Source: Lama guanicoe (lineage: Eukaryota). Taken from it: DNA of 64,000 nt. Below the pieces are notes generated by a model, which saw only the letters and a list, made by a program, of their open reading frames with translations, was not told the DNA's origin and did not search any database. Made by a program: the position numbers and the translations under genes. Below are positions 51,073-59,254 of this stretch, piece by piece; within the stretch, counting starts at the first letter, position 1; every line of letters starts with the position of its first letter. The stretch covers positions 186,001 through 250,000 of the forward strand of contig MU053810.1 of the NCBI GenBank assembly GCA_013239625.1, in the 5' to 3' direction.

Positions 51073-52229
51073 ATGGGGAGCCGGTAGAGACAAGAAAGTC
51101 TGGCCAAGAACAGAGCTTGAGTCTGAGCCACAAAGGAGCAAGAGTTTTCATTTCAAGATGTAAAATTAATCATCTAGATGTGGCAATGGGGAAATCTAGC
51201 AGAATTCTAAACGCCTGCTTCAAAACCGGAACCAGAGGACCTCTCTACGGCCCCAGCCTTTCCCGTTCGCCCCGCCATGTGTGAAATCGAATTTCCTACA
51301 CTCATCAGGGCTGCCAAGCCAGCTTTGTCACCAACATGCCTTATTTATAAAGCCCCAAGGATTCAAAGAGATAAGACACAGTTTTAGAAATATCATCTTG
51401 GGAAACAGAGAGACTGGGCTAGTGAATGCAGAAAACTCAACTAGTGGATTTCTAACGTGAGCACTTGTTTCTTGGAGTTTTGCACTGAGGAAATAGGGAC
51501 AGCAGATGAAGTGCGAGGCCACGGAGACCTGAAACCTTAGGCTTGTCTAGGACAAGTGCCCAAACAACAAGAACCCCCTGCTTTACCGACAGACCCAGCG
51601 AGGCCAGGATGATCTATCTCATAGGAGGCAGGAGGGAGCCTGGCATCCGTGGCCCCCAGCCCCGGACCCTTGCTCTTCCCAGCTGCAGCATTCCAAAAGG
51701 AGGTTCTCAAATACGCCCTGTGAGATCGCCCCCCAGTCTCCTTCTGCATCCCTGACAAAACCTCCCAAACAGGAAAAGTGACTGAGTGTACACATTTACT
51801 CCTAGTAGCCTCAACTTCTCCCATGACATAGCCTGAAAAACCATTTGGATTTCCATGGTTTCAAGGAAGGGGCGGTGATTCCCTGAAAAGGACAGAAGCT
51901 AGGGTGGGATTAGATTATTTCCAAGGTTACCAGGGGCTACATCCCATGACTCAATGGTCTCTGCCCTGCAGGGGCTTAGATTTAAATTGGCAGGCCAGGA
52001 TGTAAACACTGAAAAGTAAATGCACCTTGACCGAGTGTTCTAGAGTTCTCCCCTCAGACCTCTTCCCTGCTACCTGCTTCCTCCTCCTGAACCCAGGCCC
52101 CCACTTGGCATGGCCCCCCACTCTCCTGCGAGCCCTTCTGCTGCACCTGCTCACCTGCCCTCATCCAGCCTCCCCGGCCAGGCCCCCTGGTCTGCCACTA
52201 CCACAGGCCGCACCTGCTCACTCCCATCC

Positions 52230-52745
52230 CACACCGGCCGTTCTGCTGCCGGGACACTTTCTCTGGCAGCCGCGCGCAGGGCTGGCCGTCACATGCAGGG
52301 CTGGCCGCATAATCTGCTGGACCCAGAGCAAAATAAAGAGGAGCAATTGGCGCCGGACGCAGCACGTCTTCCCGCGTCGCCAGCGCTGCTGCCGCGGGGT
52401 CCCTGAACCGCGGGCGCCTGGGCTTCCTCCGCTCGGCCATGCCCCCCACCCCCCCACCCCCGCCGCGGCGCAGGCCCCCGAGGTCGCCGCCGCCGCGGCG
52501 GCTGCTGCTCCTGCTGCTGAGCCTCCTTGTCGAGCTGCTGGGCACCCAGGCCCGCGCTGACCCCGCCGCCGGGAGCGCCGTGCCCGCGCAGAGCCGCCGG
52601 CGCGTGGCTGCCACGCTCTCGGGTTCGTGCGGCGCGCCCGGCAGGACCTGCGGGGGACGGCCTACAGCCCGCACGCCCAGACGGAGACCCTCCTGCTGCA
52701 GGCCGAGCGCCGGGCCCTGCGTGCCTGCTGGCCGGCTGGGCGCTG
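52230..52745. promoter_or_regulatory. CpG island overlapping the NICOL1 retrocopy
   Basis: About 500 bp that is very GC-rich and CpG-dense in an otherwise CpG-depleted window. Confidence 0.8.
52297..52340. mobile_element. MER45-family (hAT) terminal fragment
   Basis: caggggctggccgcataatctgctggacccagagcaaaataaa resembles a MER45 terminus; it stops at the retrocopy. Confidence 0.55.
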
Positions 52746-52813
52746 AGGGCCTGGAGCCAGCACTTTCCTTCATCAATAAACACCTGGCCCAGCAAAAAAA
52801 AAAAAAAAAAAAA
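52350..52813 (+). pseudogene. NICOL1: Processed retrocopy of NICOL1/C4orf48 with a 1-nt frameshift
   Basis: ATG 52439 gives ...PPPRRLLLLLLSLLVELLGTQARADPAAGSAVPAQSRRRV. After a 1-nt deletion at about 52607-52608 the shifted frame reads CHALGFVRRARQDLRGTAYSPHAQTETLLLQAERRALRACWPAGR* (TGA 52744-52746). This matches recalled C4orf48 (...AVPAQSRPCVDCHAFEFMQRALQDLRKTA.SLDARTETLLLQAERRALCACWPAG.). No introns, AATAAA at 52775-52780, A20 tail at 52794-52813. The 5' boundary is approximate. Confidence 0.93.
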
Positions 52814-53714
52814 TTTCCTCAAGGTTCGTGCAGGATGCTCTGGGGCCAGAGGGAAGGTTCTGGGGGAGGAGACGTCTTTGTGTGGAGGGTGATTAGGGCC
52901 ACCCAGCTGGACGTGCCGAGCACAGGGCGGGGTGGGGAGCTGTGCTCCAGGCTGAAGGGCTGGTACAGAGAGAGGCTTTAGGGAGCCTGGGCGGGATAAG
53001 GAGGGCTTTAGCCTGATGCTCTAAATGAAAAGTGTCTAGGTGCCTGAGAAGGGTAGGAAATTGGGAAGACATGAGAGAAAACCTGAGGCCAGAACACCCA
53101 CATCCTATCTGGAGGGCATGAGGAAATTGGCTTGGTTGGAGTAGAACATCTTTATCTCTTAATAAGTCATCAAATAGAACTGCAATTCAGGGGGGCATCT
53201 CAAACTAGAATGTCTAATCTGATATATTCAGAAATTTATTACTCCACAGGCACCCTTTTTACAAGCCCCAAATGTTTATCTACTAGGGAATTAGAAGCAA
53301 TGAAGTCCATGGTGATAGCTCTGTTTTTTATTTTACAAGCCCCAATTGCTGACTCTACAGCTTTACATGTATCCTTAAATCACATAAATATGTGTACAAC
53401 GTGTAAGTTAATAAATGAGTAGTTTCGAATGCTTTATAGTCTATGCATGACTACTCTTTATGTGCGTTTATGGGTCCTCAAATTTGAGTATTAGTGACCA
53501 GACGTTACTTATCAAAATTTTTACAATTGTTCTATAATGCATGGGACTTAAATCGTGCATACTTTGAAGAGCTCGTTAGAAATTTCAGAAGGATGTTCAA
53601 TTTTGTTCAAATTAGATAAAATGGGTAAGATGATGTTTAGAAAAGTACTGTAAAAATCTTTCTGTCAAACAGGATTGCTTTAAAAACATGGTTATATAAA
53701 GTCAAAACTTACAA

Positions 53715-54350
53715 GAGACAACGAAAGACATTATACACTGGCAAAAGGGTCCTATTCATCAAGAAAAATGGTACCTGTACCAAACATGTACCGAACATCA
53801 GAGCTCCAACATATACGACGCAAACGTGGGCAGGATTGAACGGAGAAACAGAGCGCTCTATAAAAATAGGAGACTTCAATACGTTACTCTCCATAATAGA
53901 TGGAACCGCCAAGCAGAACATCAGTGTGGAAACAGAGGGCCTGCGTATCACGACAGACCAATCAGCCCTAACAGACATACAGAACACACAACCCAACAAC
54001 AGCAGAATGCACATTTTGTCACATTCACATGGAATGTTCTCCAGGATATGTCAGGCCCCAAAACACAAAAAAGGAAATACATTTTAAAATACTGAAATCA
54101 TACAAAGTATCTTCTCCAAACACAATGGAAGGAAACTAGAAATCAAGGGCAGAAGGAAAATTGGAAAGCTGACAAATATGTAGAAATTAACACATTCTTA
54201 AACAGCCAGGGTCAAAGAAGAAATCACGAAAGGAGAAAACCTCTTGAGACAAATGAAAATGGAAACACAGCATACCAAAACTTACGGGATTCAGCAAAAG
54301 CAGTGCTAAGAGGAAAATTTATGGTTGTAAACGCTTTACATTAAAAAAAG
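53715..54350 (+). mobile_element. L1M ORF2 endonuclease-region fragment
   Basis: IKIGDFNTLLSIID...LTDI...SHSHGMFSRI; atacaaagtatcttctc; cagcaaaagcagtgctaagaggaaaattt. Confidence 0.88.

Positions 54351-59122: not shown

Positions 59123-59254
<132 letters not shown>

What the first reader, a model, noticed from the sequence alone, without database searches (positions are those of the whole stretch)
52350..52813. NICOL1 (C4orf48) retrocopy inside CAMK1D intron 3, antisense to the host
Seen: an intronless copy with 5' UTR, the full coding region, AATAAA and a pure A20 tail, about 6.3 kb from the CAMK1D exon. Known: NICOL is a small secreted, testis-expressed partner of NELL2 in lumicrine signalling, and germline expression favours retroposition. 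Inference: this is a lineage-restricted (camelid?) insertion. I am not aware of a description of it but could not search.
Basis: partly seen in the sequence, partly recalled or inferred. Interest (0 to 1): 0.7.

Follow-up and report, generated by a model that had tools for sequence, protein, structure and literature searches.

The report
Dead NICOL1 retrocopy driven GC-rich
A broken, intron-less copy of the sperm-maturation gene NICOL1 sits in an intron of CAMK1D in a camelid, has kept its CpG island and has changed mostly from A/T to G/C, which likely marks a spot where meiotic recombination favours G/C bases; the insertion itself is ordinary.

Summary
The retrocopy is real. Window 52350-52793 joins all four exons of the intact NICOL1 parent found elsewhere in this genome. 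It ends in AATAAA and A20 and lies antisense in CAMK1D, 6.3 kb from a kinase exon. It is dead: a 1-base deletion shifts the frame, and 4 of 4 DNA runs carry it. A Camelus-type RNA contig crosses the 5' junction by 30 bases, so it likely predates the camel/llama split. No empty site was tested. It is the strongest CpG island in 284 kb, keeps 46 of 53 CpGs, and has 15 polarised A/T-to-G/C changes against at most 7 the other way. In exon 3, 9 of 25 A/T sites changed, all amino-acid altering. Best reading: GC-biased gene conversion at a germline-unmethylated island brought in by the insertion (0.6; methylation and recombination unmeasured). Among 29 control retrocopies, those keeping CpGs lean the same way (rho 0.65). 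This scan noted the same pattern before on other camelid DNA (ARHGDIA, CAVIN3 and more). New member of a known kind.

The parts
52350..52793 (+). Processed (intron-less) NICOL1/C4orf48 pseudogene, near full-length mRNA copy
   Evidence: four parent exons joined; 423 aligned sites, 34 substitutions, insertions of 12, 3 and 6 nt, one 1-nt deletion
52350..52412 (+). Part derived from parent exon 1 (5' UTR)
   Evidence: 60 of 63 identical
52413..52592 (+). Part derived from parent exon 2 (end of 5' UTR, ATG at 52439, signal-peptide codons)
   Evidence: at 52523-52528 the assembly differs from 4 of 4 DNA runs, which have 3 nt fewer
52442..52461 (+). Expanded C-rich tract behind the ATG, variable in length
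   Evidence: TRF; 5 and 6 nt shorter in 2 of 4 runs, same length in 1, not bridged in 1
52593..52680 (+). Part derived from parent exon 3; centre of the A/T-to-G/C burst; 1-nt deletion after 52607 shifts the frame
   Evidence: 9 of 25 A/T sites changed to G/C, 1 change the other way; parent residue kept in 17 of 17 outgroups at each; deletion seen against a Camelus-type parent contig
52681..52793 (+). Part derived from parent exon 4 (last codons, stop at 52744-52746, 3' UTR)
   Evidence: 4 differences in 113 nt
52775..52780 (+). Polyadenylation signal AATAAA
   Evidence: same in parent
52794..52813 (+). Poly(A) tail, A20 in this assembly; no target-site duplication found
   Evidence: region masked
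52151..52900 (.). CpG island made of the copy plus about 150-200 nt of upstream flank (GC 0.70, CpG observed/expected 0.77, 70 CpG)
   Evidence: longest and richest of 3 island-like segments in 284 kb; 8 CpG per 100 nt at 52201-52300 against 0-4 further out
52439..52981 (+). Accidental 180-codon frame from the copy's ATG through the frameshift and the tail; no sign of use
   Evidence: not in the protein collection, only NICOL1 N-terminal matches
59124..59198 (-). CAMK1D coding exon (residues about 76-100); the copy lies in the following intron, antisense

Best explanation
This is a dead, reverse-transcribed copy of NICOL1 mRNA inside a CAMK1D intron whose CpG-rich sequence likely stayed unmethylated in the germline and likely attracted meiotic recombination, so that GC-biased gene conversion would have fixed A/T-to-G/C changes in it. 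Step 1 (shown): a spliced, polyadenylated NICOL1 mRNA was copied into the intron, antisense to the host; LINE-1 as the agent is inferred from the tail. Step 2 (likely): this happened in a camelid ancestor before camels and llamas split. Step 3 (shown): the frame broke and conserved residues were lost, so there is no selection for NICOL protein. Step 4 (inferred from CpG retention): the 73% GC, CpG-rich mRNA formed a new island that escaped methylation. Step 5 (inferred from the substitution pattern): the island served as a default, PRDM9-independent recombination site, and biased repair pushed it further towards G/C, centred on exon 3.
For: Structure. Real in 4 of 4 DNA runs, including the deletion and the exon-3 changes (one run differs at one further site, 52659). 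Of 34 substitutions 22 are A/T>G/C, 7 G/C>A/T, 5 neutral. Polarising with 17 non-camelid orthologues, a Camelus-type parent contig and an older second retrocopy leaves 15 A/T>G/C changes on the copy's branch (13 by script, one by eye, one) among 111 A/T sites. Against these stand at most 7 G/C>A/T among 312 sites, only 1 outside a CpG. Equilibrium GC is 0.86 for all sites (binomial p 5e-5 against equal rates) and 0.97 without parent CpGs (p 2e-6). With sites that become CpG also masked it is 6 against 1 (p 7e-4). Both strands contribute: A>G 6, T>C 5, A>C 2, T>G 2. 46 of 53 CpGs are kept. Controls in the same assembly: 24 copies keeping under 65% of CpGs have non-CpG equilibrium GC 0.46; 5 keeping more have 0.76; Spearman rho 0.65, p 1e-4, n 29; partial rho 0.65 after an age proxy. 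The older NICOL1 copy (L009) went the usual way, 11 G/C>A/T against 3. Known mechanism: PMC11161765 (passages and Discussion part 1 read).
Against: Methylation and recombination were not measured. The counts are small, and PMC11161765 itself says this approach is not suited to a single locus. The non-CpG ratio rests on one G/C>A/T change. In the controls the correlation comes mainly from fewer G/C>A/T changes (rho -0.74); the A/T>G/C rate alone does not track CpG retention (rho 0.11, p 0.58). Biased conversion itself protects CpGs, so cause and effect cannot be separated. The controls were polarised by sister copies and this copy by outgroup proteins, so the comparison is not strictly like for like, and some controls may be live retrogenes. 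Of the 22 raw changes 4 are better placed on the parent's branch, 1 is ambiguous and 2 are unpolarised. The flanks show only a weak, non-significant lean (27 against 17, p 0.17). The genome has PRDM9-like KRAB, SSXRD, SET and zinc-finger exons, so a PRDM9-directed hotspot is possible. The dating contig reaches 30 bases into the copy, one short of the tool's 31-base bridging rule.
Confidence: 0.6

Rival explanations
1. Same biased gene conversion, but from a short-lived PRDM9-directed hotspot that happened to fall on the copy; CpG retention is the result of the conversion, not its cause.
For: PRDM9-like exons with an open zinc-finger exon are present. Changes cluster in about 90 nt of exon 3. 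Biased conversion would by itself slow CpG loss.
Against: Only 5 CpG transitions at 53 CpGs in a copy likely older than the camel/llama split, against 7 of 25 to 13 of 27 CpGs kept in RPL36 copies of 86-92% identity that decayed. Several unrelated CpG-keeping copies show the same lean, more than chance placement suggests. PRDM9 hotspots are short-lived (PMC11161765).
Confidence: 0.17
2. The island is kept by selection as a regulatory element, for example an alternative or imprinted CAMK1D promoter like the PPP1R26P1 retrocopy in human RB1 intron 2, and G/C gains strengthen it.
For: Intronic, antisense and CpG-rich like the RB1 case (PMC3839921, PMC4122923; passages read). The island extends into the flank. 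A donor-like site lies on the CAMK1D strand near 52150.
Against: CpG-creating changes are not enriched (9 of 15 against 46% expected, p 0.20). The one contig that crosses the donor-like site is unspliced, and no joints were seen in 4 of 4 RNA runs. Selection for a promoter would not predict so uniform a G/C direction. It can coexist with the best explanation.
Confidence: 0.12
3. Ordinary neutral decay of an unmethylated copy plus chance and changes on the parent's branch; no conversion bias.
For: Four raw differences are parent-branch changes. Lack of methylation explains the low CpG loss. Small numbers.
Against: 15 of 111 A/T sites changed against 1 of 206 non-CpG G/C sites; 9 of 25 in exon 3, each at a residue invariant in 17 of 17 outgroups. 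The per-site ratio of 26 exceeds all 29 controls (highest 8.7).
Confidence: 0.07
4. The G/C changes came in at insertion, from an ADAR-edited mRNA or reverse-transcriptase errors, or are sequencing errors.
For: Five A>G changes cluster in 34 nt (52622-52655). The assembly does differ from all four runs at 52523-52528.
Against: T>C, T>G and A>C make up 9 of the 15 changes, which A-to-I editing of the sense strand cannot give. The changes are present in 4 of 4 independent DNA runs.
Confidence: 0.04

Closest known systems
LINE-1-made processed pseudogenes (retrocopies)
   Same: Precise intron loss, poly(A) signal and tail, near full-length mRNA, frameshift, site unrelated to the parent.
   Different: No target-site duplication found; it gained G/C and kept CpGs, where 24 of 29 control copies lost more than a third of their CpGs.
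PRDM9-independent ('default') recombination hotspots at hypomethylated CpG islands with GC-biased gene conversion (Joseph et al. 2024, PMC11161765)
   Same: High equilibrium GC outside CpGs at a CpG island, in a mammal that appears to have PRDM9.
   Different: That study averages over conserved promoter-like loci; this is one island created by an insertion. 'Camel', 'alpaca' and 'Vicugna' do not occur in its main text, nor 'Camelus', 'Vicugna' or 'Lama' in 4 supplement files held as text; figure labels could not be seen.
PPP1R26P1 retrocopy in human RB1 intron 2 (CpG85, imprinted alternative promoter; PMC3839921, PMC4122923)
   Same: A retrocopy in an intron of an unrelated gene supplies a lineage-specific CpG island.
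   Different: No promoter use, imprinting or alternative exon is shown here; 'gene conversion' occurs in neither paper's main text.
NICOL / NICOL1 / C4orf48 (PMC10125973)
   Same: Sequence origin; the parent is an intact 95-aa orthologue.
   Different: The copy is frameshifted after codon 49 and has lost two of the four cysteines of the mature peptide.

Membership tests
Processed pseudogene | Introns of a parent gene removed precisely | tested here: met
   3 of 3 introns
Processed pseudogene | Poly(A) tail at the parent's cleavage site | tested here: met
   A20 begins 14 nt after AATAAA; the older copy L009 has its tail at about the same place
Processed pseudogene | Intact parent at another locus | tested here: met
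   C9121, 95 aa, open
Processed pseudogene | Target-site duplication | tested here: inconclusive
   None in the assembly; reads masked at 52783-52824, and contig ends hint at more letters there
Processed pseudogene | Disabled frame | tested here: met
   1-nt deletion shared by 4 of 4 DNA runs
Processed pseudogene | Empty site in an outgroup | not testable with these tools
   No relatives of G000 held; no empty-site joint in 4 of 4 DNA runs
Functional NICOL1 retrogene | Intact frame with conserved mature peptide | tested here: not met
   Frameshift and 12 amino-acid-altering substitutions in exon 3
Functional NICOL1 retrogene | Own transcript | tested here: inconclusive
   Listed contigs inside the copy are parent-type in the 3 of 4 RNA runs that cover it; 106 pieces not shown
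PRDM9-independent hotspot with gBGC | Excess of A/T>G/C substitutions outside CpGs, both strands | tested here: met
   15 of 111 against 1 of 206; 6 against 1 under strict masking
PRDM9-independent hotspot with gBGC | CpG island | tested here: met
   750 nt, GC 0.70, observed/expected 0.77
PRDM9-independent hotspot with gBGC | Germline hypomethylation | not testable with these tools
   Only inferred from 46 of 53 CpGs kept
PRDM9-independent hotspot with gBGC | Raised recombination or double-strand breaks, independent of PRDM9 binding | not testable with these tools
   No map available; PRDM9-like exons present
Retrocopy-derived intronic promoter or imprint (RB1 type) | Alternative host transcript from the island | tested here: inconclusive
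   No joints in 4 of 4 RNA contig sets; contigs cannot show starts
Retrocopy-derived intronic promoter or imprint (RB1 type) | Parent-of-origin methylation | not testable with these tools
   No methylome available

The most novel reading that the evidence does not exclude
In camelids, a retroposed CpG-rich mRNA is enough to found a new, long-lived PRDM9-independent recombination hotspot at a site that had none, although PRDM9 is present. Such copies are natural transplant experiments showing that the unmethylated island causes the hotspot, and the bias is strong enough to rewrite a third of the A/T sites of a coding exon.
Probability: 0.35. Interest if true: 0.65.

Novelty: new member of a known kind. 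Interest (0 to 1): 0.38.

Why it matters
As a retrocopy it matters little: a dead copy of a germline-expressed gene. Its value is as a dated insertion. Joseph et al. (PMC11161765, Discussion) state that the link between hypomethylation and PRDM9-independent recombination need not be causal. An island that arrived by retroposition and then acquired a strong G/C bias is the kind of case that tests the direction of cause. The controls here suggest that a camelid genome holds many such copies beside decayed sister copies of the same mRNA, so the test can be done genome-wide. It also warns that all-nonsynonymous change in a retrocopy can mimic positive selection.

Tried and rejected
Expression of the copy: RNA runs were listed with 9-19% of the stretch's words, which first looked like transcription of the copy. 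Laying 4 of the 6 showed parent-type contigs inside the copy and low-depth flank contigs. One contig over the upstream island has depth 16 against 2-9 in the flanks, but contig depth cannot rank expression and DNA may be in the library, so this is not counted. Lack of cover of the copy's body proves nothing. Target-site duplication: two searches found only chance 6-mers. The 180-codon shifted frame: absent from the protein collection and without full-length relatives of 99-315 aa; its start also shifts in an animal with a 5-nt shorter C tract. ADAR editing and sequencing error: rejected above. Selection for new CpGs: not supported (p 0.20). Flank bias: 27 against 17, not significant. Controls dropped: 29 RPLP1/RPLP2-family loci (no spliced parent among them), 1 RPL18A locus, parent loci, 3 duplicate rows, and 2 copies over 97% identical. 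L007, L008 and L010 are low-complexity matches, not NICOL1 copies. The bacterial promoter scan is irrelevant to a mammal. Literature: 'C4orf48 + pseudogene + camel' 0 papers; 'retrocopy + CpG island + GC-biased gene conversion' 0; 'processed pseudogene + CpG island + biased gene conversion' 4, none on this by listing; five-term gBGC search 0; 'retrocopies + gBGC + CpG islands' 1, on tandem arrays by listing; 'retrocopies + alpaca' 6, including RetrogeneDB, whose entries I could not check; 'PRDM9 + camel + alpaca + recombination' 1, unrelated. The library lacks most subscription papers, and genome annotations may already list this pseudogene.

Full report
The observation. A search of the own genome with this DNA gave 12 matches: the copy itself, four segments on contig C9121, a short duplicate contig and six weak hits. 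The four segments are the exons of a gene with GT-AG introns of 248, 204 and 973 nt; spliced, they give a 95-aa protein, and the window copy follows the spliced form across 3 of 3 junctions. The parent's first coding exon finds NICOL1/C4orf48 of dromedary as the best of 46 hits, and the whole protein differs from Vicugna pacos NICOL1 at 1 of 95 residues, so the genome is a camelid of the llama tribe (inference). The host exon at 59124-59198 (minus strand) matches CAMK1D at 25 of 25 residues and CAMK1G or CAMK1 less well. The flanking CAMK1D exons lie 78 kb upstream and 69 kb downstream of it. The copy is thus antisense in the intron after this exon, 6.3 kb from it. Exon 1 was not located; 'intron 3' follows from residue numbering and recalled human structure.

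The copy is dead. One base is missing after 52607, which shifts the frame after codon 49 of the parent. Exon 3 carries 12 substitutions, all amino-acid altering, at residues that 17 of 17 non-camelid orthologues share with the parent. Contigs of four DNA runs from four coded organisms cover the copy and show neither an insertion at the deletion site nor reversion of the exon-3 changes, so these are not assembly errors. The same call shows that the assembly differs from 4 of 4 runs at 52523-52528, that the C tract behind the ATG varies in length, and no joint that skips the copy. The tool masked 52783-52824. The downstream contigs carry 56-63 letters before 52825, more than a pure A run plus 11 letters would allow if contigs break at the tail, so the true tail may be longer or interrupted and may hide the missing target-site duplication (inference, unresolved).

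Age. Four RNA runs (two recorded as RNA, two guessed) had flank contigs 3-4% different from the window. In coded organism E the parent allele matches Camelus proteins (P0050, P0051). One contig of that organism runs from 51897 to 52379: through the upstream flank and 30 bases into the copy, ending 30 bases past the junction, where a graph of 31-letter words would merge with the abundant parent mRNA. This is one base short of the tool's bridging rule, but 30 matching bases at that place are hard to explain otherwise. The insertion therefore likely predates the camel/llama split (about 16-17 million years, recalled). In agreement, the copy has the outgroup residue at codons 9 and 17, where all camelid parents differ. 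Exons 1 and 4 are 95-97% identical to the parent, which argues against an origin much deeper than camelids, but no empty site could be examined.

Retrocopies normally lose CpGs and drift to A/T. This one is the strongest CpG island in 284 kb (70 CpG in 750 nt; 59 in 500 nt against at most 38 on a fixed grid, median 8) and keeps 46 of the parent's 53 CpGs. Of 34 substitutions, 22 are A/T>G/C although only 111 of 423 sites are A/T. Polarising removes some. Four sit better on the parent's branch (52476, 52502, 52553, 52783), one is ambiguous (52467) and two UTR sites have no outgroup (52392, 52401). Fifteen remain: 13 coding changes by script, 52375 by eye from UTR-derived N-terminal extensions of outgroup proteins (three of four support it) and 52749 from an older NICOL1 retrocopy. 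At most 7 changes go the other way, 6 of them at CpGs; one (52791) is shared with the older copy and may not be the copy's. Equilibrium GC is 0.86 overall and 0.97 outside parent CpGs (p 5e-5 and 2e-6 against equal rates); masking new CpGs as well leaves 6 against 1 (p 7e-4). The burst centres on exon 3 (9 of 25 A/T sites). The changes are nonsynonymous because only 5 of 95 third codon positions were A/T to begin with.

Controls. I rebuilt four ribosomal-protein parents (RPS28, RPL36, RPS15, RPL13) from the same genome and compared 31 retrocopies, keeping the 29 under 97% identity. The 24 that kept under 65% of CpGs have non-CpG equilibrium GC 0.46; the 5 that kept more have 0.76. Across all 29 rho is 0.65, and it stays 0.65 after an age proxy. 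The NICOL1 copy's per-site ratio (26, before the fifteenth change was added) exceeds all 29 (highest 8.7), but it rests on a single non-CpG G/C>A/T change and on a different polarising method. Against my reading: the control correlation is carried by reduced G/C loss, not by raised A/T>G/C rate (rho 0.11), and conversion itself preserves CpGs. A same-gene control exists: a second, 5'-truncated, tailed NICOL1 copy on C4216 is 74% identical and shows 11 G/C>A/T against 3.

Mechanism. A two-strand excess of all four kinds of A/T>G/C change, blind to coding, in a tract of 100-300 nt, is the known footprint of GC-biased gene conversion. Joseph et al. 2024 (PMC11161765; passages, Discussion part 1 and a supplement term search seen) report that most placental mammals with PRDM9 also recombine at hypomethylated default hotspots, detected by this measure. 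They caution that it does not suit single loci and that the link to hypomethylation need not be causal. This genome has PRDM9-like KRAB, SSXRD, SET and zinc-finger exons (motifs recalled, not all exons checked). I read the copy as an island brought in by retroposition that stayed unmethylated and became such a hotspot (0.6). A PRDM9-directed hotspot (0.17), selection for a regulatory island of the RB1/PPP1R26P1 type (0.12; PMC3839921 and PMC4122923, passages seen), neutral decay (0.07) and editing or error (0.04) are the rivals. No transcript of the copy and no splice from the island were seen in the listed rows.

Novelty. I found no paper on this copy or on biased conversion in retrocopy islands in the searches listed under Tried and rejected; the library is partial. 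After forming my reading I looked at the scan's earlier notes: five describe the same pattern in other retrocopies, two of them in this genome and at least two named as camelid. They are unchecked AI notes, and I did not test them; none covers this locus or a look-alike. The finding is an ordinary processed pseudogene that is also a clear new case of a known process. Its use lies in a set of such copies as a test of whether a new CpG island causes a hotspot.

Noticed in passing
L009, G000:C4216:7553348-7553462 (minus): A second, older, 5'-truncated NICOL1 retrocopy with its own A-rich tail, 74% identical, decayed towards A/T; used as same-gene control and 3' outgroup.
   Followed up: partly
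L046 (C1724:5474143-5474385), L047 (C55224:12983395-12983643), L091 (C7424:5846521-5846778): RPL36 and RPS15 retrocopies that keep most CpGs in A/T-rich flanks and show the same bias (15:2, 11:2 and 33:10 for A/T>G/C against non-CpG G/C>A/T).
   Followed up: partly
G000:C9322:4264779-4277609 (minus): PRDM9-like gene with KRAB, SSXRD, SET and a zinc-finger exon with five tandem fingers; not all exons checked.
   Followed up: partly
G000:C51251:1-917: A short contig 100% identical to window 51524-52440 that ends at the copy's C tract: an assembly duplicate.
   Followed up: yes
window 52523-52528: The assembly differs from 4 of 4 DNA runs (one substitution, 3 extra bases): probable assembly error or rare allele.
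   Followed up: yes
window 52783-52824: Contig lengths in 4 of 4 DNA runs hint at about 15-30 more letters around the tail than the assembly has; masked by the tool.
   Followed up: partly
L011, parent codon 32 (site of window 52553): This assembly's parent has Ser where Vicugna, dromedary and 14 of 17 outgroups have Arg: private allele or error.
   Followed up: no
window 52150-52157 (minus): A consensus-like splice donor at the edge of the island on the CAMK1D strand; the one contig crossing it is unspliced.
   Followed up: partly
window 53641-54095: Frames resembling a degraded LINE-1 endonuclease region (recalled likeness), 0.8 kb downstream of the copy.
   Followed up: no
window 52032: Camelus-type contigs of two runs have 13 extra bases here relative to the window.
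   Followed up: no
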